From Pelagomonas calceolata (lineage: Eukaryota), in NCBI GenBank assembly GCA_918797485.1, contig CAKKNE010000001.1, positions 4,030,001-4,094,000 on the forward strand: DNA of 64,000 nt. Reading direction: 5' to 3'. Made by a program: the position numbers and the translations under genes. Position 1 is the first letter of the stretch. Every line of letters begins with the position of its first letter. Shown here piece after piece: positions 5,646 to 52,234 of this stretch. The notes below the pieces were generated by a model that worked only from the letters and a program-made list of their open reading frames with translations, did not search any database and had not been told where the DNA came from.

Positions 5646-5840
5646 ATGACCGTGGCGGCGCTCGACGACCTGGGCGTCTACGGGCCGCTGAACTACGACG
5701 CGGCGGACCCCTACCCGGCCACGCGCCGCAAGCTCGAGGAGGGCCCGGGCTTCGAGGTCCTCACGCCGACCGAGAGCTTCACGCTCGACGGCGACGACGA
5801 GTACGTGGTCGAGGTCGAGCCCGTCCCGCTCGACGCGTGA
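5646..5840 (+). CDS. Small acidic hypothetical protein or terminal exon (frame open from 5619)
   Basis: Coding-like codon usage with GC-rich third positions; preceded by possible acceptor CCTAG ending at 5618. Confidence 0.4.
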   Translation: MTVAALDDLGVYGPLNYDAADPYPATRRKLEEGPGFEVLTPTESFTLDGDDEYVVEVEPVPLDA

Positions 5841-5917
5841 TCGCGCGCACAAGAGTCCCCTCCCCCCCCCCTCTCGCTTCCCGCCTAAAAAAAAAAACAA
5901 ATATATATATATGTATA

Positions 5918-6919: not shown

Positions 6920-7314
6920 GGCTGCTGTCAATGCGCACGGCAGCTTGCTCCTCTGCAGCAGATTGATGCTGCTCGGACGCGTTAACTATAATGCAGGAGC
7001 CGCGTCGAATACGTGTGTCGGCACGGCTGCGATCGCTGGGGTGTGCTGCGTGCGCTGGCGTCGCGCGCTGGTAGATGTCTCAAGCCAGATAACTGCAGCT
7101 TCGTGAGATGCAGCACCCACACGCTGTGCGCCCAGCGTAGCTCGACTAGCGCTGACAGGCTCACAGACAGACCTCAGAAGTCTTCAGAACTTGCATGCGA
7201 CGACCAAAACTCCTCGCAAGCACCATCGCCTCGGCTGCAGCCCTCCGCAGCGCTACCCTCAGCCGGCCGGCCGTGAAACGCAGCAGCGTCGTCGCGACCC
7301 GCGCAAAAGAGACG

Positions 7315-7776
7315 ATGGCAGAGGCCGACCTCCTGAGCTGCATCGTACGAACGAAACAAAAAAAGACGGACTTCAAGGGCAAGCGCGTCGGGCTCTACTT
7401 CGCCGCGGGCTGGTGCCCCATGTGCACGTCCTTCGAGCCGTCGCTCGTGCAATTCGTCGAGGCGACCCGAAGCCCGGAAAGCAATGCCCCGCCGGTGCAG
7501 CTCATCTACGTGAGCTCCGACATGGACGAGGCGGCCGCCGAGACGCGCGCCGCCGCGCTCGGCATGGATCGGGTGGACTTCGCCATGGCCCAGACGCTCA
7601 AGACGACGTTCAAGGTCTGGTCCGGGCGCGAGCGGCCCGAGTTCGGCGACGGGCGCCGCGGCGGCGTGCCGGCGATCGTCGTCGTCGACCGCGACTGCGG
7701 TGAGCTCCAGTACCTCAACGCGGAGGGCGAAGGCGCCGCGGCGCTGGGGAAGTGGAAGGATGAGGGCGCCTGGTGA
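7315..7776 (+). CDS. Nucleoredoxin/tryparedoxin-like thioredoxin
   Basis: GKRVGLYFAAGWCPMC, IYVSSD, GVPAIVVVD; alternative upstream ATG at 7195. Confidence 0.8.
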   Translation: MAEADLLSCIVRTKQKKTDFKGKRVGLYFAAGWCPMCTSFEPSLVQFVEATRSPESNAPPVQLIYVSSDMDEAAAETRAAALGMDRVDFAMAQTLKTTFKVWSGRERPEFGDGRRGGVPAIVVVDRDCGELQYLNAEGEGAAALGKWKDEGAW

Positions 7777-7831
7777 GTCTTAAAGTATTCTTCGGGCGCT
7801 CTGTAGATTTCTTAGGACGCGTTCGTCGCGC

Positions 7832-8183
7832 TCACGCGGCCTCGTCCGCGGCCGCCTCGTCGTCGGCCGCGTCGGCCGCGTCGGCCAGCTCGAACATGTC
7901 GCCCAAATCGAGGTCCATGGCGTCTCCCCCGTCGCCGTCGGCGTCGTCGGCCGCAGCGACGGGCGGCGCCGTCGGCAACGGTGGCGCGGCGCTCGACCTG
8001 TGCGCAAATCAATTGTGAGTCGGGGGCCGTGGGCAAAGAAGCGACGATATATATATGCACTACGGGTCAGTACGAGCTTGTAGGATTGATAAAGTTGGAC
8101 ATGGCCACAGAGCGCGCCGTCAGCGGCTGCGGCGCGAACGCTAGAGCACCACACATCATCGCAAAACACAATACTATCTTCAT
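7832..8183 (-). CDS. Small acidic, putatively plastid-targeted protein; 2 exons (8183-8074, 7997-7832)
   Basis: MKIVLCFAMMCGALA-FAP presequence; GT-AG intron 8073-7998 gives a 276-nt in-frame CDS with Asp/Ala-rich tail; missed by the ORF track. Confidence 0.65.
7998..8073 (-). mobile_element. Decayed introner-like intron (76 nt)
   Basis: 3' end TTGATTTGCGCACAG resembles the family TIR; other TIR and TSD not recognisable. Confidence 0.5.
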
Positions 8184-8560
8184 AGCGCTGGGGCTGCCCG
8201 GTGGCCGTGGGAGAAGACGAAATCTTCTCATCAGAGTAAGCAAATCCACTAATGTGCGGGTGCGGGTGCGCCTGCCGTTCCGAGGGCAGGGAGGACCGAG
8301 GGCCGCCCGAGGACGGTATGCGACGCTTGGGAGGGGAGCCTACTAAAATAATGTGGTACAAGTAATGGCCGCGACGCGCGCTCGGGGTCCGTACTAGAGG
8401 GGCTAGCTCAATCTCACTCATCGCCGCGACGACTTCTGCGCCTCCTTCTAGCGGGAAAAGAACAGTGTAGTGATTTTGTATACTTATGTCCCATCCGGTC
8501 AGTAGCCCGCCGCCGCGGCGCCGCCGCGCAAGGGAAAGGAAAGAATGGTTGATCACGATT

Positions 8561-9409
8561 CTACGGGCCGCAGTCCGCGCGCGCCGCGAGCTCCGTGTCC
8601 TCGACGTCGTTCCAGTCGTACTTGCGGAAGTAGTCCCAGGTGCGCATCTTTTCGGCTCTCATAGTGTTCACGTCGCCGCGCGACATTTTGGTTTCCCGGA
8701 AGTACTGTTTCGACTGGATCGCGTAGTGGTTGAGGTGGAGGGGCGCGGCTTTGAGAAGTTCCTCGGAGATGAGCGTGCGGTGTGGCCCCTCGCGCCCGGC
8801 GACGACGTGCGAGTGAATGACGAACCGCTCCAGCGCCGCGACGCGCGCCAGGCTCTTGCCTGGAATAATCATAGGCTTGTGGTAGGCGCGGCGCCACGTG
8901 AAGCCGCAGACCGTGCCGTTGCGGGGCTGCGCGTCGCGGCCCGACGAACCGAACATCTTCCAGGGCACGGCGACGTCATTCGCTGCGCCCGGGTCGAGGA
9001 CGTCGCGGACGGTTTGCGCGAGCGTCGGCGGCCACCGCCTTCCGGGATCCCGCGCGTAGAGGTACTCGTCCAGGTCGATGACCACCACCCAGTCGCGTGG
9101 GAACTCGCGCTTCAGGAGCGGCAGCGCGTACTTGTTGTAGAGCGCCACCTGGCCGTGCGCGGCGCCGTCCGTCGTCACGCGGACGCGGTCGCCGAACGGC
9201 GCGACCACGCGTTGCCAGTCGTCCGTGCTGCCGTTGTCCACCAGGATCGCGGCCACGGCGCCCTGCGCGTTGAGGTAGTAGTCGAGCCACGGCCCCAGGT
9301 TCGGCGCCTCGTTCTTGAAGATGCCCACGATCACGAGGCCCGGGGGCCGGTCGAGCACGATGCCTTGGGCGGCGCACAAGACGAGGGTCGTTATGAAGGG
9401 AAAGGCCAT
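8561..9409 (-). CDS. GT-A fold glycosyltransferase (GT2/GT92-like)
   Basis: IFKNEAP.L..WLDYY, LVDNGSTD, WVVVIDLDEY (DxD), LNHY. Confidence 0.8.
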   Translation of the reverse strand: MAFPFITTLVLCAAQGIVLDRPPGLVIVGIFKNEAPNLGPWLDYYLNAQGAVAAILVDNGSTDDWQRVVAPFGDRVRVTTDGAAHGQVALYNKYALPLLKREFPRDWVVVIDLDEYLYARDPGRRWPPTLAQTVRDVLDPGAANDVAVPWKMFGSSGRDAQPRNGTVCGFTWRRAYHKPMIIPGKSLARVAALERFVIHSHVVAGREGPHRTLISEELLKAAPLHLNHYAIQSKQYFRETKMSRGDVNTMRAEKMRTWDYFRKYDWNDVEDTELAARADCGP

Positions 9410-17849: not shown

Positions 17850-19026
17850 CTACTTCGGCATGCTGCCCCGCGCGGCGCACGACGCCTGCCGCGCGACGCG
17901 GTAGCTCCGCGTCGCGTGGTGCGACAGCATCTTGTCGGCGACGTGCTCGTCGGCCAGGTGCTCCTGGTTGTAGCACGACAGCGTCTGCGCGACGCCGTCG
18001 TGGCCGCGCGCCGCCGCGTACTCCAGGGCCGTGTGGCCCCTGGCGTTCCGCCTGTGCACGATCTGCCGCCCGACGGTCCGCCGCAGCACGACCGCGAGGC
18101 GCTCGACGTCACCGATCTGGGCCAAGTAATGGACGATGGTGTTGCCCGCCGACGTCGCCTCCTGCAGCGTCGCGTCGTTGACCTGGCCGAACAGCGCCTC
18201 GAAGTCGCGGCCGTGCGCGTCGAGCAGCTGGTCCCAGTCGCAGCCCGCGGCCTGTGTGGAAATCAACCAGTGCGACGGGTGCACCCGACAATTCTTCACT
18301 AAGTCATTTCTCGGCGATGACGCGGCCGTCCTGGCTCGGTCGAGCGGTGAGGAACCGGCATCGCCACGCCATCGAGCAGGCGTCGCGTCGATGGCGTGGA
18401 GGTCGACGCGATGATTCAGCGCGAACGCGCCGTAAAATTTTGATTTCCACACAGCCCGCGGCCTTGGGGAGCGGCTTCGCCAGGGCCTTGGCGTCGGCGT
18501 GGATGGCCGACGGCGCGTACAGCTCCTTCGGGGCCTTCGGCGGCTTCTTCGCCCGCCGGCGCCAGAACTTGCGCCGCGACTTTTTGACGAGGCGGTCCTC
18601 CTCGAAGCGCGCGACCATGACCTCGAAGTCGCGGGGCGAGACGCGGCCGTGCTGGTCCGCGCCCACGTCCAGCATCATGCGCTTGGTCTGCGCCGTCGAG
18701 ACGCCCTTGCCGAGGCGCTCCCTGAGCCGGTCGCGCGCCTCCGAGACGTCGTAGTAGGCGGTCACCTCGGCGACGACCTCGACGAGCTTCGGCTCCTTGA
18801 CGACGCTGCGTCGCACCAGGCCCCAGCGGCTCGCGGCCCGGGTCTCCGCCGGCTTCGGCGGCGGGTCCGCGGGCCGCCGCGCCGCGCGGCGCTTGCTCTC
18901 GCGCCGCTTGATCTTGCGCCGCGGGGTCTTCTCGGGCTCCGCCTCGGACTCCTCCTCCGCGAGCGGCTCCCCGCCGAAGCAGGTGAGGAAGGCGTCGTCC
19001 TCGCGGCAGCCCATGCAGGCGAACAT
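17850..19026 (-). CDS. Ankyrin-repeat protein (paralog B); 2 exons (19026-18463, 18251-17850)
   Basis: GNTIVHYLAQIG, GHTALEYAAARG; C-terminus similar to paralog A. Confidence 0.75.
18252..18462 (-). mobile_element. Introner (211-nt GC-AG intron)
   Basis: Perfect 15-bp TIRs spanning 18252-18454; perfect TSD CCCGCGGC at 18244-18251 and 18455-18462. Confidence 0.95.
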
Positions 19027-23097: not shown

Positions 23098-24100
23098 ATG
23101 CAGCTCAAAGCCATCAATGGCATCATCGCATTGGCATGCGCCACCAAAGCGCTGCAGCGGCCACGCGTCATCATTGCGCCCGCGCAATTCGGCGTGCCGA
23201 AGGATTACGACGACCTGAGCGCGTTGCTCCGGCAGCGCGGCCACACCGTCGCGTGCGCGCCGCTGAGTCGACTCTCGTGGCTGCGAATCGTGCCATCGGT
23301 TTTCACCGAAGCGTTTTTCAAGGGCGAGCTCAAGCCGCAGGGCACCCTGGACTTCTTCTTCGAGGCGCTCGACGCGGCCGTCGCGGACGTGGGGCCGGAC
23401 GAAGACATAGCAATCCTAGGCCACAGCATCGGCGGCTGGGTGGCCCGCGCGTGGGTCGTCGACCGGGGCGAGCAGCGCGTCAAGCGCTTCGTGACGCTGG
23501 GCACGCCGCACAACGAGCCCCCGGAGGGCCTGTTCTCGAACATCGACCAGACGAGAGGTTTACTGAAATACGTCCGCGCGAACTGCCCGCCGGACGCGTC
23601 CATTTTCACGTGCGTCGCGGGCACGGCCACGTCGACCGCCGCGCTCGGCGACGTCTTCAAGCTCGATGCGTGGGACGAAGAGTTGAGGCGGAGCCCGCTG
23701 CTCGAGGCGCTGGTCTCGTTGCCGTCCTACCTGGCGCTCTCCGGGAAGAACCCGTTCGGCGTCAAGGGCGACGGCCTCATCCCCGTGGCGACGGCCAGTG
23801 CGGAAATCAACTAGTGCGTCAGGCCGGCCTGGAGGTATTATTTGCTATTCTGGCCGCCTCGACGCAGCGCGAGAGTGCTTGGCGTCCTCGCACGAGGCGT
23901 CTTGGGCTTACTCGCCCGAACGTTTGATTTCCGCACAGGCGACGGCCTGCCTCGCGGACTGCCCGTCCATCGAGGTCGACTGCCACCACAGCGACTTCGT
24001 CCCGACGGCGCTGGACTCGATCCGCCTGCCGGAGACGTACCCCTGGTACGGGTCGCCCGCGGTCTTCGAGGCCTGGGCCGACGCCCTAAGCATCAACTAG
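23098..24100 (+). CDS. Alpha/beta hydrolase (PGAP1/lipase-like); 2 exons (23098-23787, 23939-24100)
   Basis: GHSIGG nucleophile elbow, VTLGTPH, GDGLIPV; probable catalytic His lies in exon 2. Confidence 0.85.
23788..23938 (+). mobile_element. Introner of a different subfamily (151-nt GC-AG intron)
   Basis: TIRs CAGTGCGGAAATCAA / TTGATTTCCGCACAG; perfect TSD GCGACGGC at 23788-23795 and 23939-23946; different interior. Confidence 0.93.
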
Positions 24101-24754: not shown

Positions 24755-26900
24755 ATGAAAGGCCATCATCACCGGCGCCGCAACAGCGCCGTGCGCCTCT
24801 TCGTGGCGACGTGGGTCTTCATCGCGGCGCTATGCACCGCGGCCGTGCTGACCACGTGGGCCACGACGAGCGACGAACCGGTGCACAGCGCGCGGCCGCC
24901 GCCCCCGCGGCTTGACGACACGCGCCGCGCCGTCGCCCTGGCCCTGGCGCCCTGCGCCCCGGAGATGCAACTGTGCACCGCGGTGACGCGGGATCCCTTC
25001 CCGCGAGCGACCGGGACCGCAAAGGACGCCACGGTGACGGCGGAGATGCGATCCGTCCTCGGGCGAACGCTCGCGACGATCCGAGACGACGGCGCGGGCG
25101 ACCTCCGGCCGGCGCCGGCGCCGCGCGCGACGTGCGTCGTGCCGACACGGGACGGCACCTTCGCCCAGAGGTTGGCCGCCTGGGCGGCGCAGCAGGCGCC
25201 CGGCCGCGTCGTCTTCACGGTCGCGGACGCGAACTACGCCGAGTACATGGCCGACGCGCGGCTCGACACCTCCCGGACGTTCGGGACCAATCTCTTAGTG
25301 GTCGCCCTCGACGAGGCCGCCGCGGTCGCCGCGTGCGCCGCGGGCTGCGCCGTCGTCCGGTTCGGCGGCGGCAAGGGCAAGGACGCGATCTACGAGGCCA
25401 AGTACGGCACGCTGCACCTCCTGCTCTCGCTGAAACGGGACGCGACGTTCCGGGAGATGGACGTCTGGCACCTGCGCGACCCGGCGGCGGGTACGAAGGA
25501 GGCGGACGTCGTGTTCAGCGTGCACCAGGACAACCCCTACAACATCAACGCGGGCTGGATCCACGCGCGCGGCGGTGTGGATACGGCGCGTTTGTTTGAG
25601 GACCTCGTGAAATACCTGAAATTAAACCCAAAGGCCTTCGACCAGCAGGTCCTGAACTGCATGGTGTCCGTGTCGTCGGCGCGGGACGAGTGCGACGCCA
25701 AGGGCGTCGCCGCGCAGGATCCCATCCTGCGGCGGTGGACGACGCCGCCGGCGCGGGTGACGCACGCGACCATCGGCCCCGACGTCCTCGTGGCCCACGC
25801 CCGGCCCTACGTCATGGCCTGTGCATAAATCAAATTGTCGAGGCGCGTCTCCGCCACTGCCGAATCATGACCTCCACGCCATCGACGCGACCGCCGGCTC
25901 GATGGCGTGGCGGTGTGGTCTCTTACCGCTCGATTCAGTCATCAAGGTCGCGCGTTCTCGCCGAGAAATGACTTAGTGAAGAATTATCAGGTATCCGACT
26001 CACTGTTTGATTGGCGCACAGGTCATGGCGGCCACGAGGGCGGTGCACGTGCTGACGACGATCCCGCTGACCGACGCGCGGGGCAAGACCGACGTCGCGC
26101 GCGAGCTCATGCTCTGGCCGGGCGCGCGGGACTACTATAGGGTCGGCGCGGGCCACCGCTACCTCGCGGTGCGCGGGGGCGTGCTCTCGACGTCGTCGCC
26201 GCACCACTTCCACGAGTGGCGCTGGGTCAACGCCGCCCTGACGGAGCTGGTCTGGCTGGCGCGGCTGACGGGCCGCGTGCTGGTCTGGCCGCGCATCTTC
26301 GATTTCCAGCAGTACCACCACGCGGCGGACCACGTGGATTTGCGCAGCGTCGAGGAGGTGCTGGGCGGCTGGCGGAGTTGGCGCGAGTCGACGTTCTTCG
26401 CGAACCCGCGGCTCGACGTGGCAGATGACGCGACCTACGCGTCCCTCGCGCTCCGCGGGTCGCGGGCGACGGTCACGCGGCGCAACCACTTCGACGGGCC
26501 GCCCGTCAACGCGCGGTCGTACGTGGTGAAGAAGACCGTTGACACGTGGGCCGTCGCCCTCGCGGACCCCGACCTGCGCGACGCGTCCGTCGTGACGGTC
26601 GACGTCGACGCGGCCGCGTTCCCCCTGAGCGACTGCTTCCACATGCGCGGAAGTTCCTGGTCCTGCGCCTCGTCCGTGAGCGCGGGGCGGGTCCCCCGCG
26701 AGCTCGCCCTGGTCCAGGCCAAGCTGAACTGGTGCCGCCAAAAATTAGGCTTCGACCACGCCAAGGCGCCGAACGGCGACGCCGCGCCCGTGGGCTACCA
26801 GCCCTCGAAGACGTGCGCCGTCCGCCTCGCGACAGGACTGGTGCGGAAGGCGCCGATCGCCCTTCCGGTGCCCGGGCGGAACTCGGCCGTAGAGAGTTAA
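24755..26900 (+). CDS. Nucleotide-diphospho-sugar transferase (GT77-like) type II membrane protein; 2 exons (24755-25810, 26022-26900)
   Basis: LVVALD, EMDVWHLRDP, NINAGW, FDQQVLN. Confidence 0.75.
25811..26021 (+). mobile_element. Introner (211-nt GT-AG intron)
   Basis: Diverged TIRs spanning 25819-26021; perfect TSD GTCATGGC at 25811-25818 and 26022-26029. Confidence 0.93.
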
Positions 26901-26966
26901 TTATTGTGTTGAACAGTTCGTTCGTTCAGTTGTTCAGTTCACAGACATTACTCGCAAAAATTCAAT

Positions 26967-28742
26967 TCACGCCGCCGCCGCGGCCGACTTGTGCTCGCGC
27001 CGCATGCGCTCGAACATGAGATCCGTCTTCACGCCGGAGACGACGTGCGACGGGTCGCGCGGCTCAGTGATGGCGACGTCGCGGCGAGGAGGCGCATCAC
27101 CCCGTACGACGACCTTATTCTTGCCCTCGAAGCGCAGATATTCGAGCGTGGCGCCGGCCTTCGCCGCCAGGTAGTCGCAGAACTCGGCCGTCGTCCGCAC
27201 GGCCGCGGGCCGGTTCGGAAACAGGTCCGCGAAGACACAACAGGGCACGACGGCAAAGGGCTTCCCGTACTTGAGCGCGGCGTCGACGGCGGCCTCGGTG
27301 GCCTCGTCGGCGTGGAGGGCCACGATGGCCGAACAGCTTTCCAGTAACGCGCGACCTGTGTGGAAATCAACCAGTGCGTCGGGTGCACCCGACAATTCTT
27401 CACTAAGTCATTTCTCGGCGATGACGCGGCCGTCCTGGCTCGGTCGAGCGGTGGGGAACCGGCATCGCCACGCCATCGAGCAGGCGTCGCGTCGCTGGCG
27501 TGGAGGACGACGCGATGATTCCGCACGAACGCGCCGTAAAATTTTGATTTCCACACAGCGCGCGACCCTGTTCCGAAGCCTCGAACGCAGGATCCAGCAG
27601 CGCCTCGACGCGTCGCGGATTCCGGGCCATCAGCTGGTCCCGGGGCGACGAGTCCGGAGTGAGCGCCGCGAGCCGCTTCCGCAGGAGCTTCCGCCGGCTC
27701 TTGCGCGGGACCTTGGCCGAGCGCGGGTCGAGCGACACCGCCCGGAGCCCGTGGACGCACTGGAGCTCCCAGGCGAGCTGGCCTCGGCCGCCGGCCACCT
27801 GTGTGGAAATCAAAATTTTACGGTGCGTTCCTGAATCGCCGCGTCGTCCTCCACGCCATCGATGCGACGCCTGCTCGATGGCGTAGCGATGCCGGTTCCT
27901 CACCGCTCGACCGAGCCAGGTCGGCCGCGTCATCGCCGAGAAATGACTTAGTGAAGAATTGTGCACCCGACGCACTGGTTGATTTCCACACAGCCGGCCA
28001 CGTCGAGCACGGGCCCCGCCTCGAGCAGACTCCGTCCAAATCTATGCAAGATCCACGCGCCGAACTCCACGTGCCGCGCCGCGTGCCGCCGCTTACGGTT
28101 GTCGTCGCCGGGCACGAAGCGCCAGGCGTTCTTATTGGCATACTTGTCGTACGCCGCGAACGGGTCCGCCGCGTCCTGCTTGAGGTCGTGGTCCCGCCTC
28201 AATCTTAACCGCCGGCCCCACGTCTCCTCGAACGCGTCGCGAAACGCGTGCCGGTAGGGGCAGTTTTTCGTCGTGCACGCGTCGCCGCGCGCCCACACTT
28301 TACAAAGCACGTCCTTCTTCTCCCTTGTATCCGGGTTCTTCGCCGGCTTCTCCGCCGATGGCCTTTCCGTCAGGACCGCAAGCGCGTCGCAGCGCAACGC
28401 CCGGAGGCCTCGCCGCGAGCACGCGGGCTCTTCCCGCGCCTCGACGACGACGACGTCGGCCCGTTCGGCCGCCGGGGGGAACGTCGCGGCGGCGCACGCG
28501 AGCTGCCACTCGTCGTCCCGGCCCGTCCTCACGACGTCGAGGAACACGAGGTTCTTGCCGAGCCGCCGCCATCGTACTAACTTCGCTTCGAAGCGCTCGA
28601 GTGGTGCTTCGGTAGTTGCGGCGAGCGTGCGCTCCCAGCGCTGGGTCTTGTGGGTTGCAGCAGTGGGGCTCTCTGCGGGCACTGATGCGTTTTTGACGGG
28701 CACAGGCGTGGTGGTCGCCAGCACAGCAGTGGTGGTCGACAT
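26967..28742 (-). CDS. OB-fold-like + CCCH zinc finger + SAM-dependent methyltransferase; 3 exons (28742-28002, 27798-27567, 27355-26967)
   Basis: RRLGKNLVFLDV; CKVW...C...NCPYRH; spliced VLDVAGGRG motif I; LHADEATE, KPFAVVPCCVF. Confidence 0.8.
27356..27566 (-). mobile_element. Introner (211-nt GT-AG intron)
   Basis: Perfect TIRs spanning 27356-27558; TSD CGCGCGAC at 27348-27355 and 27559-27566. Confidence 0.95.
27799..28001 (-). mobile_element. Introner in opposite orientation (203-nt GT-AG intron)
   Basis: Perfect TIRs spanning 27799-27993; TSD CCGGCCAC at 27791-27798 and 27994-28001. Confidence 0.95.
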
Positions 28743-28950
28743 TTTGCACCGCAGAATGGTCGCTTAGAGCAGCTCTTGGCCAGTTGCATGCGAAAACTAG
28801 TGTTAATATCGCTAACACCCAAAAAATAATAAAGCAGACAAGGCCCCTTCAGCGTGGCAGACCGTAGCGTACGGGGCATTGTTTGCCCACCGAACGTCGG
28901 CTGCTGACCTCCTGCGTCCAGCCCGCAGCCGTGTTTGTCTCCCAAACACC

Positions 28951-29698: not shown

Positions 29699-31048
29699 CT
29701 AGTGCTTCGCCGCCTCGTTGACCTCCGCGGCCCAGCGCACCCACTTCTCCCGCGACTCGGCCGCGTGCGCGCCGTCCATATGAGGCGACACGACGCGCGC
29801 GCCGATGCGCGCGTAGTCCTGGCACGCCTGCATGGTCTTGACGTGCTCGCCCTCGTCGATGGCGATGTTCGTGAAGACGTCGAGCAGCGTCGCGCAGTCG
29901 GGACGGCGCGTCTCCGGCGGCGTCGAGACCTGGAAGTCGTCGAAGAGATACAAGTCGCCCGACGAGTAGTACGACGTCGCGACGGCGGGCGCCGGTAACC
30001 TGTGCGCAATCAATCAGTGAGTTGGGTGGATCCGTCGAGCAGCGCCGCGTTAATGAGAAGCGCAGCGAAATCTGATTTGTGCACTGCCAGTAACTCCGCC
30101 AGCCGCTCGCGGTTTTGGACGACGAACGTGCCGTACGTGTCGACGGCATGCGCCTCTAGCAGTTCCATGAACTGGTACGCGATCCTAGGACTGAAAAAGA
30201 ATACGACGTTGAGGATCCAATAGTACCCAATCGCGACGTGGTAGCCCAGGAAGCGGTCGGACCACAGCGAATTCCCCCCGAGCGCCTCCATGATCAGGAG
30301 GTGGTGCCTGTGTGGAAATCAAATTTGCGGACGCCCCATCGACGCGACGTCGTCCCCGTAACGGCACCACAATTCTCACTGGTTGATTTCACACAGGGCG
30401 GTGCAACTCGTTCCACTCCTCCGCGTTGTGGACCTTGCGTAATTCTGGGCCGCGCCACCACCCGAAGGACTCGTAGAGGTGCAGCATCGAGACGTACGAG
30501 AAGTAGGGAATCCGCGCGATGACCTCCAGGAACCAGAAGCGTTGTATGGGCCGCTCGTCGAAGAGCGTGTCCAAGAACAGGCACCCCACATCATAGAGCT
30601 TGCGCGACACGGGGTGCGCGTCGACGCGGCCGCCCGACGCCTCGCGTTTCCGCTCGGCCTCCGTCACGGCCTCGTTCGACAGGACGAGGCCCAGCGACGC
30701 GGGCACGGCGCCCGGGTCCCGCTTCTGGAGCCCGATGCTTTCGGCCACCTGTCCTAGGATCGTCGCGCCCTGCTTGAGAAAGTTCGTCTGCGCGAGCTCC
30801 CACGCCGGCGCAGGGCGGTCTCCATCAAAATAGTTGGCCTGCTCGACGTAGTTCGGCATCGTTGTGGTCGTCTTGGTCGTCGTCACGGCGTCGGCGTCCG
30901 CGAGCTCGGCCTCCTTCGCGTCGATGAGCTGCGTAATCGTGTCACCGTCGTCGTGCGCTGCGCGGCGCGTCAATGCATGGCGACGGGCCGGCACGACGAA
31001 TGCCGTCGCGGATGCCGATACGGCGACGACGGCCAGGAAACTTCGCAT
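29699..31048 (-). CDS. PTOX: Plastid terminal oxidase (AOX/PTOX di-iron family); 3 exons (31048-30405, 30307-30095, 29999-29699)
   Basis: RFWFLEVIARIPYFSY..MLHLYE, EEWNELHHLLIME.LGG, E.HAVDTY, DEGEH; ATA-FVVP presequence; spliced CDS 1158 nt. Confidence 0.93.
30000..30094 (-). mobile_element. Short, aged introner (95-nt GT-AG intron)
   Basis: Degenerate TIRs spanning 30000-30086; TSD CCGGTAAC / CCAGTAAC (1 mismatch). Confidence 0.88.
30308..30404 (-). mobile_element. Short introner (97-nt GC-AG intron)
   Basis: TIRs spanning 30308-30396; TSD GGTGGTGC / GGCGGTGC (1 mismatch). Confidence 0.9.
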
Positions 31049-33355: not shown

Positions 33356-34276
33356 ATGGGCAAGGGCGGCGAAGCAAAGCCCGAGCCTGGAGCCTTGAAA
33401 CGGAGGATCGAGCGCCACCCGCGCCTCGAGCCCATCCCCAAGGTGCTCTACGAGGACGCGGCCACGAACGTGCCGTCGACGCCCTACTACGACGCGCTGA
33501 ATCGAAGAGTCGACGAGATCGTGGCCAAGGCCCGGGCCGTGGCCAAGGAACCGGAAATACACATCTTGGTCGCGGGCGACGGCGCGTTAGTCTACCCGAA
33601 TCGGATCGTGTGGCTGCCCTGGGTCATGGGCGCCGTCGCCGGCTATCTGTGCACGACGGCGCCCTCGCTCAGAGCCTTCCTCTGGATGCTGCCGGCCATG
33701 TATCTCGGGTATGATTTCTATAGTGGTGTCTTACATGTGGCTTTGGACGATCCGAAGAACATGCAGGGCGTCAAGTCCTACATTTTGTTCCAGGGGTGCC
33801 TCGAGTTCCAGTGGCACCACGCCATCCCCTACGACGGGGCCTCGAAGCCTTTTATCGCTTGTTGTGCCGACCTGAACATCATCGTCTTGATCCTCATGGT
33901 CCTGAATTGTGGATTGCTGGGCTACACGTCGGGCACGCGCGCGGCGCTGACCGGTCTCAAACTCTTCTTCGCGTACTTCGGGCAGTATTGCCATCGGGCG
34001 GCACATACGCCGAAGTCGAAAAGACCACAGTGGGTCCAGTTCCTCCAGTCCACGGGCTTCATGACGCCGCAAGCCAAGCACAACGGCCACCACCGGCCGC
34101 CCCACGACGAGAACTTCTGTCTGATCGGGAAGATGGACCCGGCCGTGAACGGCCTCATCAAGCTGTGCGGCACGAACGACTGGGTCTGGTTCGGCCTCTG
34201 GCTCGGGCTGTCGTGCTGCGACGTGGCCCTCGTGCACCGGGGCCTCGCGTGCGTGGCGCCGGGGCTGTTCCCCTAA
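33356..34276 (+). CDS. FAD4/CarF/TMEM189-family lipid desaturase
   Basis: His boxes DFYSGVLH..LD, FQWHH, CHRAAH, HNGHH..PHD.NFC. Confidence 0.88.
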   Translation: MGKGGEAKPEPGALKRRIERHPRLEPIPKVLYEDAATNVPSTPYYDALNRRVDEIVAKARAVAKEPEIHILVAGDGALVYPNRIVWLPWVMGAVAGYLCTTAPSLRAFLWMLPAMYLGYDFYSGVLHVALDDPKNMQGVKSYILFQGCLEFQWHHAIPYDGASKPFIACCADLNIIVLILMVLNCGLLGYTSGTRAALTGLKLFFAYFGQYCHRAAHTPKSKRPQWVQFLQSTGFMTPQAKHNGHHRPPHDENFCLIGKMDPAVNGLIKLCGTNDWVWFGLWLGLSCCDVALVHRGLACVAPGLFP

Positions 34277-34397
34277 GATTCTAGAAGCACATTCACCGCG
34301 TATTACTATGGCTCGCCAGGCGGGCGCGGGGCCTGTTTCCCTAAGATTCTAGAAGCACATTCACCGCGTATTACTATGGCTCGCCAGGCGGGCGCGG
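34265..34397. repeat. Tandem duplication (65 bp, 68-bp period) of a convergent gene junction
   Basis: 34265-34329 matches 34333-34397 with one mismatch. Confidence 0.95.
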
Positions 34398-40020: not shown

Positions 40021-42453
40021 ATGTTCAAGGCCCTCGTCTCGCGGGGCTCGAAGGCCCTGCAGCGTCTTGATGAGAGACTGAACGACGAGGGCGAGGAGGA
40101 CGCGTTTGAAGAGGGCTGGGGCGAGGAGGAGCGGAAAGCTCTCGAGCCCGTGTCCATCGATGATGTGGACGTCGACGATCGAGACGCGCTGCGGCGGCGC
40201 ATCAGCAAGCTGCAGGGCATGGTCGTCTCGATGGAGGAGGCCTTGGAGGCGGAGCGGACGTCGTCGCGCGACACGGCGCAGAAGCTGGGCCGCGCGCTGC
40301 AGGACGCCGCCACCGTCGACGGTTTGGTGGATGAGTACGGCAAGCTCGCGTCGGAAGCCTCGCGGTTATCCGAGCGCGACGCGCGGACCATCGCGGAGCT
40401 CGCGGCGCAGCGCGACGCGCAGCAGACGCGTTTGGCGGTCTTCGAGCGGCAATTAAATGATCAGGACGTCCAGTACGCGGCGGCGCCGTCCTCGGACTCG
40501 ACCAAAACCTTCGCGGCGCTGCGGGCGGCCAAGGCGAAGATTTTTGAGTTGGAGCTCGAACTCGTCGACGCGCGCAAGGGCGTCGAGAATGGCGCGGCGG
40601 GGCGGTTGGCATCGATGGACGCGGCGCTCGCTGCTGTAAGTGTTGATGCGGCGCGCGCGCGCCTCGAATCCAAAACGGACCCCCGCCTCGCATCTCGCGT
40701 AAAGGCGCTCGAGGCCGAGCTCGCCGCGCGGCCGGCTTCATCAACACTCCGCGACGCCGAGGCGGCGGCGGATGCACTACGGAGCGAACTGGACGTCCTA
40801 CGACGGCGCGTTGCCGACGCGGAGCGCGACGCCGCGGCGCGGCCGGCGTCCTCATTATACCAGGACGCCGTCGCGGCGCGCGACGCCGCGCGGGCCGAGG
40901 CCGATGCATTGAGGACGAAGTGCGCGGCGGCCGAGGCCGACGCCGCGGCGCGGCCGAGCGCCGGCGCGCTGCGGGACGCGGCGGACGCGCGCGATCGAGC
41001 AACGCGCGACGCGGCGGATCTGAGGAGGCGCCTTGATGAATGCGAGGGCGACCTCAAGGGCTTGCGGATACATAAGGAGGACGCCGCGAAGGCCAGGGAC
41101 GAGGCCGAGCGGAAGCTGCGGGAGCACGACGCGCGCGTGTTGCGGGCGGAGAAGTCGATCAACGACCTCGAGGCGGCCGCGGACGCGCGCGTCGCCGCCG
41201 CCGAGCAGAAGATACGGGAGTTGGAAGCAGAGAACGCGGCCCAGATCGGGGACCGCGTGGCCGCGGCGATAAGAGGAGAGCGGCTGAAGATCGAGCGCGA
41301 GTTCCGGGACGAGCTCGCGGCGGCGCGCGCGCAAGTGAAGGCCGCGGAGCGCCTCGCGGACGAGGAGCGGGACAAGCGGCGCAAGCTCCACAACCGCGTC
41401 ATGGAGCTCCAGGGCAATATTCGAGTGATGTGCCGCGCGCGGCCGCCGCGGGCCGGCGCGCCGTCGGCGCTTTTTCCGAGAGAGGGCTGCGTCAAAATAA
41501 GGCAGCCGGAGTATTGTGATGACGCGGACTTCGAGTTCGACGCGGTCTTCGACCCGACGTCGTCGCAGATTGAAGTGTTTGATAGTGTCCGGGACCTCGT
41601 GACGTCGGCGCTCGACGGGTACTCGGTGTGCATCTTCGCGTACGGCCAGACGGGGAGCGGGAAGACGTACACGATGGAGGGCCCGGCCGACAAGCGGGGT
41701 GTTAATGTAAGAGCCATCGCGCGCGTGCTCGAGGCCGCGTCCATGCGAAGTGACGGTGTCAGTTACGAACCGTTGGAAATAAGCATGCTGGAGATCTACA
41801 ACGAGCAGGTCCGCGACCTGTTGCGGCCGCCCGGCGCCGCCGCGGAGCGGCTCGAGGTCGCGACGGCGACGGGCGAGTCCGTCGTGAAGGGCCTCACGAA
41901 ACAGTCCGTGTTCACGGCCGACGAGATCGAGAAGTTGATCGCGGCCGGCGCGCGGCACCGCGCCGCGGGCGCGCACGCCCTGAACAAGGACTCGTCGCGG
42001 TCCCACTCCATCGTGACGCTGTACATTCGCGGCACGACCGCCGCCGGCGACGCGCTCTCCTCAAAACTGCATTTGGTCGACCTCGCGGGCTCGGAGCGCC
42101 TCGACAAGACGGGCGCCACGGGAGATAGGTTGACCGAGGCCAAGGCCATCAACAAGTCGTTGTCGGCTTTAGGGGATGTCCTGACGGCGCTCGCCTCCCA
42201 AAGGCGCGGCCACGTGCCCTACCGCAATTCGAAACTGACCTATTTACTCCAGGACTCGCTGAGCGGCGACTCCAAGGCCCTCATGTTCGTGAACGTGTCG
42301 ACGGACGCCGACGACGTGCCCGAGACGCTCTGCAGCCTGCGGTTTGCCGCGCGGGCCCACGACGTGGCGCTGGGGCAGGCCAAGAAGAACGTGGCGCCGG
42401 CGCGCGCGGCCTCGCCCATGGGCCGGCCGCCGCGGACGCCCGAGCGGCGGTAA
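40021..42453 (+). CDS. Kinesin-14 (C-terminal motor)
   Basis: ELQGNIRVMCR neck, FAYGQTGSGKT, SSRSH, LVDLAGSER, HVPYRNSKLT; long N-terminal coiled coil. Confidence 0.95.
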   Translation: MFKALVSRGSKALQRLDERLNDEGEEDAFEEGWGEEERKALEPVSIDDVDVDDRDALRRRISKLQGMVVSMEEALEAERTSSRDTAQKLGRALQDAATVDGLVDEYGKLASEASRLSERDARTIAELAAQRDAQQTRLAVFERQLNDQDVQYAAAPSSDSTKTFAALRAAKAKIFELELELVDARKGVENGAAGRLASMDAALAAVSVDAARARLESKTDPRLASRVKALEAELAARPASSTLRDAEAAADALRSELDVLRRRVADAERDAAARPASSLYQDAVAARDAARAEADALRTKCAAAEADAAARPSAGALRDAADARDRATRDAADLRRRLDECEGDLKGLRIHKEDAAKARDEAERKLREHDARVLRAEKSINDLEAAADARVAAAEQKIRELEAENAAQIGDRVAAAIRGERLKIEREFRDELAAARAQVKAAERLADEERDKRRKLHNRVMELQGNIRVMCRARPPRAGAPSALFPREGCVKIRQPEYCDDADFEFDAVFDPTSSQIEVFDSVRDLVTSALDGYSVCIFAYGQTGSGKTYTMEGPADKRGVNVRAIARVLEAASMRSDGVSYEPLEISMLEIYNEQVRDLLRPPGAAAERLEVATATGESVVKGLTKQSVFTADEIEKLIAAGARHRAAGAHALNKDSSRSHSIVTLYIRGTTAAGDALSSKLHLVDLAGSERLDKTGATGDRLTEAKAINKSLSALGDVLTALASQRRGHVPYRNSKLTYLLQDSLSGDSKALMFVNVSTDADDVPETLCSLRFAARAHDVALGQAKKNVAPARAASPMGRPPRTPERR

Positions 42454-44033: not shown

Positions 44034-44480
44034 GGTCCCGGGTTATCCAGCGCGAGCAGGTGCTCTTCAGGTATCGCGAGGGGCTCGCACTTGTATTTGC
44101 CCTTGCCCGTCCGATGGTGGTGCTTGCAGAAGAACTGGTCGCACTTGCGGTCGACCCACTCCTTCTGGCCGTCCGTCTGCCTGCGCGCAATTCAACCAGG
44201 TGAGTCGGGTGCACGTCTGGAAGCGCCGTGAATTTGATTCGTGCGCCGCCGTCTGCAGCGTGCCGAACGAGGTCCCGGGCTTGACGTGGTGCGCGTGCTT
44301 GTTCGAGCGGCACCAGGCCTCGTCGTCGTGCGTCGCCATGGCCGCGAGGTGGTGCGCGGCGCGCGTGCGGGCGTTCAGGCGCCGTCGCTCGCGGTCGTCG
44401 GCCGCGCCGCGGAGGCGCGCGGCGGCGGCCGTCGTGGCCACGATCGTGGCCGCGAGGAGGCACGCGAGGGCGCGTCGCAT
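44030..44480 (-). CDS. Small secreted Cys-containing protein; 2 exons (44480-44257, 44180-44030)
   Basis: Signal peptide; WC....H.VKPG.SFG.L|Q...QKEW...KCDQFFC after splicing (375 nt). Confidence 0.7.
44181..44256 (-). mobile_element. Mini introner (76-nt GC-AG intron)
   Basis: Degenerate TIRs spanning 44181-44248; perfect TSD CCGTCTGC at 44173-44180 and 44249-44256. Confidence 0.88.
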
Positions 44481-44801: not shown

Positions 44802-46361
44802 ATGATGCGCCTGCTCGCAACCTTGCTGGCCGTGGAAGCGACCTATCCGGGCCCCCACCGCGGCTACCGGGGCATGCCCGAGACGGAGCGCATCGAATTT
44901 TATGAGAGGAACGGGTATCGCTGGCCCCCAACCAAAGCGACGCAGGGCTGGCCGCCCGTCGCACGGAAGGAGTCGGCCGCGTACAAAAAGTCCAGGGACG
45001 AGATGGAGGCGTGGATCCGGCGGAATTTGACGACGTACAAGGCGACCTGGGACGAGTGGTCCAGCATGGTTCAATCTAGGGCGATGCCCCGCTTCACGGA
45101 GAAGGGTTTCGCGGTCGTCGACTATAGTGATACGGAGTTCTACAGAGAGCTCAAGGCGCAGTACGATAAGAACGTGAGGGACCCCGTCGCCTTCTCGCAA
45201 CTACGAAAGGAGAAGATGCAGGGCACGGGGAATGCTCGATTTTATTCACAATCGCAATTGAACGCAAAGTTGTTGGACGGACTGAGACCGAACCTCGAAG
45301 AGTGGAGCGGGATTGAGCTGCAGAACGGCCAGTCCTACGGCGTCCGCGTCTACGGGGAAGGTTCCACATTGGTCAACCACATCGATAGATGTGAAACACA
45401 TGTAATTAGCGCGATCTTCCACATCGACCACGACCTCGACGAGCCCTGGCCGCTGGAGATTGAAGACCACGACGGCAATTGGCACGAGGTCAAACTCTGT
45501 GTGGAAATCAACCAGTGTGTCAGGTGCACTGGTAATTCTTCACTAAGTCATTTTGCGGCGATGACGCGGCCATGCTGGCTCCGTCGAGCGGTGAGGAACC
45601 GGCATCGCCACGTCATCGAGCAGGCGTCGTGTCGATGGCGTGGAGGTCAACGCGACGATTTAGCACGTACGCGCCGTAAAATTTTGATTTTCACACAGGT
45701 CAACCTCAAGCCCGGCGAGGTTTGTTATTATGAGTCCGCGAAGCAGTACCACGCGCGCTTGCAGCCGATGCGGGGCCGCGCCTACGCCAGCGTGTTTTTA
45801 CACTGGTTCCCGGCCCAAAATTGGAACTGGACGATGTGGGACGGCCACGTCATGGTGCCGCCGGACTTTGAAGAGAAGGAGGCGTCGGGCTTCTTCCGGC
45901 GGAGGGCCGTCGCGAACGCGGGGCCGCCGCCCTTCCTGCGGCATTTTGATGCTTATTGGTCGAAAAGGGGGCGGCCTTCCCCATCATTGCCGCGCGGCGT
46001 CGAGAACCCCGTCCAGGAGTACGAGGGCTTCGGCGCGCCGTCGCCGACGCCCGAGGAGACGCAGCGCTTGCGCGTGGTGAATGCGGCGGCGGCGCGCAAG
46101 CACGCGCAGCGGGGGGACGTGGCGGAGCTGCACGCGCTGCTGGACCGCGTGGCCGTCGACTTCTTGGACGACGGCGACGAGAACGGCTGGACAGCTTTAC
46201 ATGAAGCGGCCCGGAGCGGCCACGCCGACGTCTTGAGGCTCCTCGTCGCCAAGGGCGCCGACGCGGCCAAAAGGACGAAGTACGGCCAGAGCGTCCATGA
46301 CATCGCCCGCGACGCGCACGACGCGGACCACCCGGCCATGCGGTTCCTGGGGGAGTTGTGA
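44802..46361 (+). CDS. 2OG-Fe(II) oxygenase-like protein with C-terminal ankyrin repeat; 2 exons (44802-45488, 45699-46361)
   Basis: YGVRVY..GS.L..HID...THVISAI, YESAK..H.R, DENGWTALHEAARSG. Confidence 0.8.
   Translation: MMRLLATLLAVEATYPGPHRGYRGMPETERIEFYERNGYRWPPTKATQGWPPVARKESAAYKKSRDEMEAWIRRNLTTYKATWDEWSSMVQSRAMPRFTEKGFAVVDYSDTEFYRELKAQYDKNVRDPVAFSQLRKEKMQGTGNARFYSQSQLNAKLLDGLRPNLEEWSGIELQNGQSYGVRVYGEGSTLVNHIDRCETHVISAIFHIDHDLDEPWPLEIEDHDGNWHEVKLCVEINQCVRCTGNSSLSHFAAMTRPCWLRRAVRNRHRHVIEQASCRWRGGQRDDLARTRRKILIFTQVNLKPGEVCYYESAKQYHARLQPMRGRAYASVFLHWFPAQNWNWTMWDGHVMVPPDFEEKEASGFFRRRAVANAGPPPFLRHFDAYWSKRGRPSPSLPRGVENPVQEYEGFGAPSPTPEETQRLRVVNAAAARKHAQRGDVAELHALLDRVAVDFLDDGDENGWTALHEAARSGHADVLRLLVAKGADAAKRTKYGQSVHDIARDAHDADHPAMRFLGEL
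45489..45698 (+). mobile_element. Introner (210-nt GT-AG intron, in frame and stop-free)
   Basis: TIRs spanning 45497-45698; TSD GTCAAACT / GTCAACCT (1 mismatch). Confidence 0.95.
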
Positions 46362-50775: not shown

Positions 50776-52234
50776 ATGTCGCCACTTTGTTTCATCCTGG
50801 CCGCGCTTGTCTGCGCGGCCCCGGAGGGACGGGATACGCGGCCTCGGGCACGGACGCCCCCGGGCCCGTCGACGTACTGCGGCCAGGGATACAGGTGCCG
50901 CGGCAGCGGCCGCGAGATGCGGTGCCACCCGGACGTCGCGTGCGACGACAGGGAATTAAGAAGTGGTCCGTGCGCGGTAGCGACCGCGTGCCTCGAAAAG
51001 TGCGTCGCGGACCCGGGGGGCGAGGCCTGCGACATGCCCTGCCACGGATCGCCGCTGCGCTCGCGCGCGACCGGCGCCGCCCCGCCGCCGGACCTGAAGG
51101 TTGCGTATTTTTTGAATCATCGCAAGGTGGCGGGGACGAGCATGCTCGCCGCGCTCAAGCGAGTCGCGGGGCGCGTCGGCGTCGACGGGGGCTCGCTGCT
51201 CGTCGCCAAGGAGGATCTCCGGCCCTTCAACCCGAATTTGTTCTGCAAACCGGAGACCAGCGCGGGCGTGCTCTACGTCACGGTACTTCGGCACCCGCTG
51301 CACCGGCTCGTGAGTTTGTACCACTCCGAGAACAACTTCGGGGACCGGAACCCGGCCGCGAACCGCAACGCAACGGCCTGGGGCGCCTTCCTCGACGGCT
51401 CGTGCACGCGGCACAGGTGCGCGGCGCCGAACTACTACACGCGGCGCTTGCTCGGCTTCGCCCGCGTGACGAAGGCGCCCGCGGACTGCAAACCGCGCGG
51501 GTTGAAGGGGCGGAACTCCGAACAATGCGACGTCGCGGCGCCGGGGACCTGCGCCGAGCCGACGTTCCACCCCCGGTGGCTCCACGACGTCGACCAGGCC
51601 GCGGCGCGGCAGATCGATTGCTGCAACGCCTTCGCGGAGGGCAAGACGCGCCGCGGTCGCCACCTGTGTGGAAATCAAAATTTTACGGCGTGTTCGTGCA
51701 GAATCGTCTCGTCGCCCTCCACGCCATCGACGCGACGCCTGCTCGATGGCGTGGCGATGCCGGTTCCTCACCGATCGACCGAGCCAACACGGCTGCGTCA
51801 TCGTCGAGAAATGACTTCGTGAAGAATTATCGGGTGCACCCGACGCACTGGTTGATTTCCACACAGGTCGCATCGGGTTCGCGTTCTCGTGCGACTGCGG
51901 GCGAGGCGCGGGCCGAGTGCTGAGCGACTTGACGAGCGACGTGGGTATCGCCGTCTCGTCGAGCGAGGTGGCCTTCCAGGTCGCGAAGCGTGTCCTCGAT
52001 GCGTTCGACTTCGCCGTGGCGCTGGAGCGCATGGACGAGCGCGCGGCGCAGAAACTCTCCCAACTCCTCGGCACGACCGTGACGTTCCCACACCACCGCA
52101 CAAGGGCCGGAGGCAGCGGCGGCTTCAACAGACTCGCCGCGGCCATGCCGACCAGCATCCGCGATCGCATCCTGCGGCAACACGACGTGGACGTGCGCCT
52201 CCACGCCTGGCTCGCGGCGCGCCCCCTCCCTTAA
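50776..52234 (+). CDS. Sulfotransferase-like secreted/Golgi protein; 2 exons (50776-51655, 51867-52234)
   Basis: 5'-PSB-like HRKVAGTS and 3'-PB-like LRHPLHRLVSLY; signal peptide. Confidence 0.78.
51656..51866 (+). mobile_element. Introner (211-nt GT-AG intron)
   Basis: Perfect TIRs spanning 51664-51866; TSD GTCGCCAC / GTCGCATC (2 mismatches). Confidence 0.93.

What the first reader, a model, noticed from the sequence alone, without database searches (positions are those of the whole stretch)
27348..28001. Orientation-independent splicing: two copies in opposite orientation within one methyltransferase gene
Seen: in gene sense the copy at 27356 starts with the AAATCAAAATT end and the copy at 27799 starts with the AAATCAACCAG end, separated by a 232-nt exon. 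Window-wide the split is 7 versus 4. Because both TIRs start CTG, either end reads CAG. The second copy splits SAM motif I (VLD|VAGGRG), so it must be spliced for function. Inference: TTGAT inside the TIR fits a YTRAY branch point, so the TIR alone may carry the whole 3' splicing signal. The inverted pair could also fold into a ~200-bp duplex looping out exon 2, favouring skipping or back-splicing.
Basis: partly seen in the sequence, partly recalled or inferred. Interest (0 to 1): 0.7.

Follow-up and report, generated by a model that had tools for sequence, protein, structure and literature searches.

The report
Two-way transposon introns in algal gene
Two small jumping elements sit back-to-back inside an algal gene and RNA data show that both are cut out cleanly as introns, a behaviour already published for this kind of element (introners), while the proposed branch site inside the element's end remains untested and no exon skipping or circular RNA was seen.

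Summary
Two ~200-bp elements (27356-27558, 27799-27993) with 15-bp terminal inverted repeats (TIRs) and perfect 8-bp target-site duplications (TSDs) lie in opposite orientation in one minus-strand gene, 232 nt apart. Window-wide the split is 7:4, which does not differ from 50:50 (p=0.55). RNA confirms both splices: one contig from each of two studies and 5 raw junction reads. The donor GT comes from the TSD, the acceptor CAG from either TIR. This is the published pelagophyte introner mechanism, two-way insertion included. The speculative parts are unsupported. TTGAT (A at -12) is the only YTRAY near both acceptors, but across 72 copies it is no better conserved at the 3' end than at the 5' end (11 vs 10 changes). 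The ~200-bp duplex forms in silico (z=-27.5), but it buries both acceptors. No skip or back-splice joint was listed, at low depth in polyA libraries. Verdict: a real, ordinary instance of a known element.

The parts
28002..28742 (-). Coding exon 1 (ATG at 28742; 247 codons; OB-fold-like part, CCCH zinc finger, ends at ...VLD)
   Evidence: covered by RNA contigs from 28774 and 28781
27799..28001 (-). Intron A, 203 nt, phase 0: first TSD copy (GT donor) plus element in ACCAG-end-first orientation, ending CAG
   Evidence: joint 27789>27993, skips 203, CT..AC at cut +9: 1 raw read, 2 contigs
27799..27993 (.). Introner element copy A, 195 nt; TIRs 27799-27813 and 27979-27993
27994..28001 (-). TSD of copy A, intronic copy (GTGGCCGG), supplies the donor
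27791..27798 (-). TSD of copy A, exonic copy, restores V-A-G of motif I
27809..27813 (-). TTGAT in the 3' TIR of intron A; candidate branch A at 27810 (-12); untested
27567..27798 (-). Exon 2, 232 nt, 74% G+C; carries the rest of motif I
27356..27566 (-). Intron B, 211 nt, phase 1: first TSD copy (GT donor) plus element in AAATT-end-first orientation, ending CAG
   Evidence: joint 27347>27559, skips 211, CT..AC at cut +8: 4 raw reads, 2 contigs
27356..27558 (.). Introner element copy B, 203 nt; TIRs 27356-27370 and 27544-27558
27559..27566 (-). TSD of copy B, intronic copy (GTCGCGCG), supplies the donor
27348..27355 (-). TSD of copy B, exonic copy
27366..27370 (-). TTGAT in the 3' TIR of intron B; candidate branch A at 27367 (-12); untested
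26967..27355 (-). Coding exon 3 to the TGA stop; spliced product 453 aa
11883..12074 (-). Family copy, AAATT-first, GT donor (splicing inferred)
18252..18454 (-). Family copy, AAATT-first, GC donor (splicing inferred)
23796..23938 (+). Diverged copy, ACCAG-first, GC donor (splicing inferred)
25819..26021 (+). Diverged copy, AAATT-first, GT donor (splicing inferred)
30000..30086 (-). Short degenerate copy, AAATT-first, GT donor (splicing inferred)
30308..30396 (-). Short copy, ACCAG-first, GC donor (splicing inferred)
44181..44248 (-). Short degenerate copy, AAATT-first, GC donor (splicing inferred)
45497..45698 (+). Family copy, ACCAG-first, GT donor (splicing inferred)
51664..51866 (+). Family copy, AAATT-first, GT donor (splicing inferred)

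Best explanation
Two copies of a short, non-coding element with inverted ends lie in opposite orientation in one gene and both are spliced out exactly, likely because each arrived as a DNA transposon (an introner) whose 8-bp target duplication supplies the GT donor while either of its identical ends supplies the CAG acceptor. Shown: boundaries, TIRs, TSDs, both splice joints in RNA, and alleles that lack the insertions. Inferred: mobilisation by a transposase encoded elsewhere, removal by the major spliceosome, and independent arrival of the two copies. Because the second TSD copy stays in the mRNA, the protein is unchanged. The branch point is most likely the TIR's TTGAT adenosine at -12 (about 45%); otherwise it is a weaker adenosine further upstream that differs by orientation. 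The inverted pair is most likely a by-product of roughly 50:50 insertion. Intron A is predicted to be committed to splicing before copy B is transcribed, so the duplex has little effect on the mature mRNA.
For: Anatomy. RNA: contigs of runs X5 and X8 (two studies) each join the three exons with 0 other letters, and X8's contig begins and ends with the gene (26951-28781). Raw polyA reads give 4 joints for intron B and 1 for intron A, on the gene's strand, at GT..AG. Retention of A or B would truncate the 453-aa protein at 264 or 378 aa. Of 71 distinct full copies from marine metagenomes, 70 have GT/GC at the start of the TSD on at least one strand against a 31.6% background (p=5e-34). The longest-frame strand agrees with the donor strand in 35 of 36 testable cases, and orientation splits 27:34 among 61 strand-resolved copies. 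Of 15 listed members of the gene's 172-member cluster, 6 read through both sites to the C-terminus, 5 read through both and enter an element about 11 codons past site B (one on a 255,746-nt contig), 1 enters an element 2 codons before site A, 2 start in element sequence at site B, and 1 is an uninformative fragment. Published descriptions match.
Against: Only 5 raw junction reads, all from one sample. An exactly spliced mRNA cannot be told by sequence from an allele lacking the elements; this was argued away only by the 0 differences over about 1.4 kb of exon. X5 and X8 are RNA by the tool's guess. Retention could not be measured, because reads from other copies cover both introns. No transposase partner was identified. 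About 7 of the 46 loci dropped before the count are full-length copies without a recognisable TSD.
Confidence: 0.93

Rival explanations
1. The 15-bp TIR alone carries the complete 3' splice signal, a branch adenosine in TTGAT at -12 plus CAG, and this is why orientation does not matter. It is an add-on to the best explanation rather than an alternative to it.
For: TTGAT is the only YTRAY in the last 70 nt of both introns; the window has 2.8 YTRAY per kb per strand. Copies shortened to 68-95 nt or internally deleted mostly keep it. In L004 the change TTGAT>TTAAT keeps the consensus, and in L089 the A stays.
Against: In 72 strand-resolved copies the -12 A is changed 2 times at the 3' end and 3 times at the 5' end; the five motif positions 11 vs 10 times. 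By contrast the A of the acceptor AG is changed 0 vs 4 times (small numbers). L036 has a perfect TSD, a GT donor and an open frame after removal but a T-run in place of TTGAT (could be an assembly error, no RNA test). L049 also lacks it. A YYRAY lies at -24 in the AAATT-first orientation. In every single copy the motif and the AG are predicted to pair with the 5' TIR at probability 0.99-1.0. The TIR is conserved for transposition anyway. The species' native branch consensus is not known to me.
Confidence: 0.4
2. The inverted pair forms a ~200-bp RNA duplex that loops out exon 2 and drives appreciable exon skipping or back-splicing to a 232-nt circle.
For: The 846-nt pre-mRNA folds into one long A:B duplex, -607.8 kcal/mol, z=-27.5, 0 of 20 shuffles as stable. 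The switch to A:B pairing is predicted once about 65 nt of intron B are made. Exon 2 has lower read depth than its neighbours, near zero in X24.
Against: The joint table lists 3 joints: the two normal splices and one short opposite-strand joint inside the repeat; no exon1-exon3 or go-back joint, in 2 raw runs and 2 contig sets. Exon 2 has the highest G+C context of 17 exonic bins, and depth falls with G+C (Spearman -0.62, p=0.008; -0.68 within exon 1 alone). The duplex pairs both acceptors and both candidate branch sites, whereas circle-promoting repeats normally flank free splice sites (own knowledge). Skipping 232 nt shifts the frame and removes most of motif I. Caveats: joints in raw reads need 3 reads to be listed, polyA selection loses circles, and frameshifted RNA may be degraded.
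Confidence: 0.1
3. One orientation is poorly spliced, or the RNA comes from an allele without the elements, so that orientation independence is only apparent.
For: Intron A (ACCAG-first) has only 1 raw junction read, and sense-strand depth inside it is about 5 in X21. Insertion-free alleles exist in nature.
Against: Both contigs carry both joints at depth 31-33 with no other letter, and depth at 27860-27923 inside copy A is 0 in both. Natural alleles differ from the window by about 4-9% of residues in the well-aligned part, the RNA by none. ACCAG-first copies are at least as common as the other orientation in coding frames (34 vs 27). Reads inside introns lie on both strands and are mostly from other copies.
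Confidence: 0.05

Closest known systems
Introner elements (IEs) of Aureococcus anophagefferens (Huff, Zilberman and Roy 2016, Nature 538:533; not held, known through citing passages and from recall)
   Same: One splice site carried by the element and the other recruited from the TSD; introns created in either orientation; 8-nt TSD pattern (likens 8-nt-TSD, two-way classes to A. anophagefferens); frequent GC donors (22 of 72 here; 39.6% GC-AG introns in that alga, PMC3033335).
   Different: The host gene is only about 50-53% identical to the A. anophagefferens orthologue, whose cluster reads through both sites, so this is another species. I could not compare the TIR sequence with the published one.
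Putative IEs of Pelagomonas calceolata (Guerin et al. 2022, PMC9481584)
   Same: Intron length peak near 210 bp (here 203 + 8 = 211), GT and GC donors, AG acceptor, conserved TIRs; 956 putative IEs. Near-identical copies occur in seawater metagenomes. The window is likely from this or a close pelagophyte (inference).
   Different: The passages seen do not mention orientation, TSD, branch point or inverted pairs; Figure S3 was not visible.
Polarella glacialis ILE classes 6, 8 and 10 (Roy et al. 2020, 10.1101/2020.10.14.339549)
   Same: 8-nt TSD starting with the donor; intron creation in either orientation.
   Different: A dinoflagellate, with separate families; those classes are biased to one orientation, whereas no bias is detectable here (34:38 overall).
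Inverted-repeat-driven back-splicing (such as Alu pairs flanking circularised exons; own knowledge)
   Same: An inverted repeat pair flanking an exon, able to form a long duplex.
   Different: Here the repeats are the whole introns and include the acceptors, which the duplex buries; no back-splice joint was seen.

Membership tests
Introner element (TIR/TSD type) | Element plus one TSD copy is removed as an intron, restoring the uninterrupted sequence | tested here: met
   Joints skipping 211 and 203 nt at GT..AG in raw reads and in contigs of two studies
Introner element (TIR/TSD type) | Many similar copies interspersed in unrelated genes | tested here: met
Introner element (TIR/TSD type) | Short, non-coding, with TIRs and TSD (MITE anatomy) | tested here: met
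   15-nt TIR, 8-nt TSD, 195-203 nt; longest stop-free frame 67 codons; no Rfam match at E<=0.1
Introner element (TIR/TSD type) | One splice site carried, the other co-opted from the TSD | tested here: met
   70 of 71 TSDs start with GT/GC on a strand vs 31.6% background; terminal AG intact at all 72 gene-sense 3' ends
Introner element (TIR/TSD type) | Intron creation in both orientations (A. anophagefferens type) | tested here: met
   Both orientations spliced in this gene; 34 vs 38 among 72 strand-resolved copies
Introner element (TIR/TSD type) | Recent gain: presence/absence among alleles or orthologues | tested here: met
   Alleles without A and B, with B, or with other sites; a 70%-identical orthologue is continuous on a 135-kb contig (P0019). 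Judged from predicted proteins, not from DNA.
Introner element (TIR/TSD type) | Insertion into nucleosome linkers | not testable with these tools
   No nucleosome data
Introner element (TIR/TSD type) | An autonomous transposase element with the same ends | not tested
   No whole genome held; none among TIR pairs up to 1.5 kb apart in the window
TIR-contained branch point | Lariat branch maps to the -12 adenosine | tested here: inconclusive
   No lariat joint listed in polyA runs; no 3'-specific conservation, 2 vs 3 changes
Inverted-repeat-driven circRNA or skipping | Back-splice or skip joints over the looped exon | tested here: not met
   None among the 3 joints listed; low depth, polyA libraries
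Class I SAM-dependent methyltransferase (host protein) | Rossmann fold with D-x-x-G-G-x-G loop after strand 1 | tested here: met
   D, V, G, G invariant in 84 of 84 homologues; model of the 95%-identical allele P0001, pLDDT 86.7, strand 243-246; the top 10 Foldseek hits are methyltransferase-type enzymes, E 1.5e-5 to 1e-4. Pfam gave no methyltransferase hit on the window's exons and only E 0.17-0.18 on two homologues.
Class I SAM-dependent methyltransferase (host protein) | Methyl transfer activity | not testable with these tools
   No assay; substrate unknown

The most novel reading that the evidence does not exclude
A 15-bp transposon end doubles as a complete, portable 3' splice signal (branch A at -12 plus CAG), read by the spliceosome although it is hairpinned to the other end. 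Where two copies land inverted in one gene, which should be about half of two-copy genes, a ~200-bp duplex diverts some transcripts to skipped or circular RNA, making introner pairs a genome-wide source of circles or decay-linked regulation.
Probability: 0.07. Interest if true: 0.6.

Novelty: already known. Interest (0 to 1): 0.15.

Why it matters
As it stands this is a clean worked example of known biology: two-way introner insertion creating exact introns in a conserved enzyme motif, with RNA support and polymorphic alleles. It would matter more if lariat mapping placed the branch point inside the TIR, because that would explain how one short transposon end creates working introns in either direction. 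It would also matter if inverted pairs produced circles. Neither was seen here. The locus is a convenient test case because both orientations share one transcript.

Tried and rejected
No whole genome is held, so genome-wide counts and a transposase search were not possible. Huff et al. 2016 is not held under DOI, PMC id or PubMed id; whether it discusses a branch site is unknown to me. The first read lay at 93% likeness was swamped by reads of other copies, and 109 joints were not shown, so runs X22 and X23 say nothing about skipping. Low depth over exon 2 was considered as a sign of skipping and rejected as G+C bias. The opposite-strand joint 27464>27850 (20-nt side) and the 27813>27472 joint were considered as duplex or lariat products and rejected: they are out of register with the duplex, do not touch a donor, and fit shorter family members. 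7:4 as an orientation bias was rejected (p=0.55; metagenome copies 27:34, p=0.44). A column-by-column comparison by orientation found no position better kept when 3'. The element's internal 18-mer has no match in viral contigs. No Rfam family. Searches for prior reports of a TIR branch point or introner circles listed nothing on this point; I saw listings only, plus passages of PMC3033335 and PMC11282704. The scan's own notes held nothing. The Atlas gave unnamed eukaryotic clusters, one with Methyltransf_32 on 20% of members, a lead only.

Full report
1. Observation. The window is G+C-rich DNA (61-74% per 2 kb), eukaryotic by its introns and protein homologues; no whole genome is held. At the stated place are two copies of a ~200-nt repeat, 27356-27558 and 27799-27993, inverted and 91.6% identical. 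Each has a perfect 15-nt TIR pair and a perfect 8-nt TSD. On the minus strand the TSDs read GTCGCGCG and GTGGCCGG, so each begins with GT, and each element ends in CAG. Removing TSD plus element gives introns of 211 nt (27356-27566, B, phase 1) and 203 nt (27799-28001, A, phase 0) around a 232-nt exon, and a 453-aa frame from ATG 28742. Retaining A or B truncates it at 264 or 378 aa; skipping exon 2 shifts the frame. B starts with the AAATT end and A with the ACCAG end. TIR, profile and TSD scans give 11 copies in the window, 7 AAATT-first and 4 ACCAG-first.

2. Host gene. The downstream half has 587 homologues at E<=0.001 among 7995 candidates scored. In an alignment of 84 of the 120 listed, D and V of VLD|VAGGRG and two of its glycines are invariant, and intron A lies between that D and V. 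The model of a 95%-identical allele (pLDDT 86.7) matches SAM-dependent methyltransferases best, with E 1.5e-5 to 1e-4 and low whole-chain TM scores of 0.21-0.26. The profile also hits tRNA-synthetase N-terminal domains and CCCH fingers. Pfam alone was weak. The label 'methyltransferase' is therefore a supported fold prediction, not a shown activity. A named relative is the Aureococcus anophagefferens protein at about 53% identity, which points to another pelagophyte (inference).

3. Splicing is shown. Laying two raw polyA runs of one sample (X21, X24) and two contig sets from two other studies (X5, X8) at 99% likeness listed three joints. 27347>27559 skips 211 (4 reads, 2 contigs) and 27789>27993 skips 203 (1 read, 2 contigs); both read GT..AG on the gene strand at the predicted cuts. 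Each contig joins all three exons with no other letter, and X8's contig starts and ends with the gene. The third joint is a 20-nt opposite-strand match inside the repeat. Limits: 5 raw junction reads; X5 and X8 are RNA by guess; exact splicing looks like an empty allele, which is unlikely here only because the exons match the window letter for letter while natural alleles do not. The earlier lay of X21-X24 at 93% was dominated by other copies.

4. The family. An internal 18-mer found 121 metagenome loci, and the scan stopped at its limit. 75 passed my filter of two TIRs and a TSD with at most 3 mismatches, 4 were duplicates, and 46 were dropped: mostly cut by contig ends, about 6 chance matches, about 7 full-length without a clear TSD (I inspected 31 of the 46). 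Of the 71, 70 have GT or GC at the TSD start on some strand against 31.6% of flanking 8-mers (p=5e-34). Unambiguous cases split 24:23, and adding frame-resolved ones gives 27:34. The donor strand agrees with the longest frame in 35 of 36 testable cases. Among 15 listed members of the gene's 172-member cluster, 6 are uninterrupted, 5 lack A and B but enter an element about 11 codons past site B, 1 enters an element just before site A, 2 start in element sequence at site B, and 1 is a fragment. The insertions are thus recent and polymorphic, as read from predicted proteins; some uninterrupted ones may come from transcripts.

5. Branch point. TTGAT, with its A at -12, is the only YTRAY in the last 70 nt of both introns, so it is a fair candidate. 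If splicing needed it, it should decay less at the gene-sense 3' end than at the 5' end. In 72 strand-resolved copies (61 metagenome, 11 window) the TIR has 44 changes at 5' and 43 at 3'. The motif has 10 and 11, its A 3 and 2, while the acceptor's A has 4 and 0. The test is weak but gives no support. L036 keeps a perfect TSD, a GT donor and an open frame without TTGAT, though an assembly error in the T-run is possible. A YYRAY at -24 is a rival in one orientation. In silico the motif and the AG pair with the element's own 5' TIR in every copy. No lariat joint was listed, as expected for polyA RNA. I put the TIR branch at 40-45%.

6. Duplex. The pre-mRNA folds into one long A:B helix (-607.8 kcal/mol, z=-27.5). 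Folding growing transcripts, A's acceptor pairs with its own TIR until about 65 nt of intron B exist and then swaps to B's; in the full fold both acceptors and both candidate branch sites are paired. The geometry does bring the skip and back-splice partners together, but it hides the acceptors. No skip or go-back joint was listed. Exon 2's low depth follows its G+C content (Spearman -0.62 over 17 bins, -0.68 in exon 1 alone). With two orientations equally common, inverted pairs are expected, and the window holds a second, degenerate one. Rare circles or degraded skip products are not excluded.

7. Comparison with what is known. The defining paper (Huff et al. 2016) is not held; I rely on citing passages and on recall. 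[quoted passage not shown] PMC9481584 (passages and supplement file 2 passages) reports 956 putative IEs in Pelagomonas calceolata with a 210-bp length peak, GT/GC donors, AG acceptors and TIRs. PMC9860276 and its preprint (passages) describe elements that carry the 3' site and take the 5' site from the TSD, and report that introners are generally spliced more efficiently than other introns. PMC3033335 (passages) gives 39.6% GC-AG introns in A. anophagefferens. PMC11282704 (passages) had nothing on orientation. Searches listed no paper on a TIR branch point or introner circles, but the unread Huff paper may cover the former.

8. Verdict. The element works like, and passes every testable criterion of, a TIR/TSD introner. 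Orientation-independent splicing is real here and already known. The two new ideas are open (branch point) or unsupported (skipping, circles). Interest 0.15.

Noticed in passing
window 30000-30086 and 30308-30396 (minus strand): A second inverted pair of short, degenerate copies in one gene, around a 213-nt exon. Removing both opens a 440-codon frame with alternative-oxidase (PF01786) hits on the exons. No RNA was laid here.
   Followed up: partly
metagenome loci L001-L121: TSDs fit GT/GC on both strands in 23 of 70 copies against 17% expected (p=0.001), hinting at a palindromic target preference GY....RC of the transposase. A resemblance to hAT-type 8-bp targets is recalled, not tested.
   Followed up: partly
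window 23796, 30086, 44248; locus L004: The second TIR letter is changed only at gene-sense 5' ends (4 vs 0), three times CTG to CAG. This is either release from the AG constraint or a trace of an older subfamily with only one splice-competent end.
   Followed up: partly
metagenome loci L001-L121: AAATT-first copies are more diverged from the consensus than ACCAG-first ones (mean 0.076, n=27, vs 0.054, n=34; Mann-Whitney p=0.005). Orientation preference or survival may have changed over time. One of several comparisons made, not corrected.
   Followed up: partly
window 26967-28742 (minus strand): The host protein combines an OB-fold-like N-terminal part, a CCCH finger and a methyltransferase fold, with unnamed homologues in algae, oomycetes and fungi: a likely uncharacterised RNA methyltransferase family.
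   Followed up: partly
proteins P0004, P0005, P0008, P0009, P0013, P0015: Other alleles of the same gene carry element insertions a few codons from sites A and B, suggesting two local insertion hot zones.
   Followed up: partly
window 27356-27558 in runs X21-X24: 5,700-8,600 polyA reads per run were laid on the stretch, most carrying element sequence from other loci, on both strands; one flank accounts for over 1,300 reads per run. Some copies stay in mature or abundant RNA.
   Followed up: no
window 7998-8026: A single TIR-like end with an AC-ending flank and no recognisable partner end or clear TSD; perhaps an old, decayed copy.
   Followed up: partly
window 34244-34379 and 40711-40989: A 68-nt tandem duplication, and three 57-nt repeats at 111-nt spacing.
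   Followed up: no
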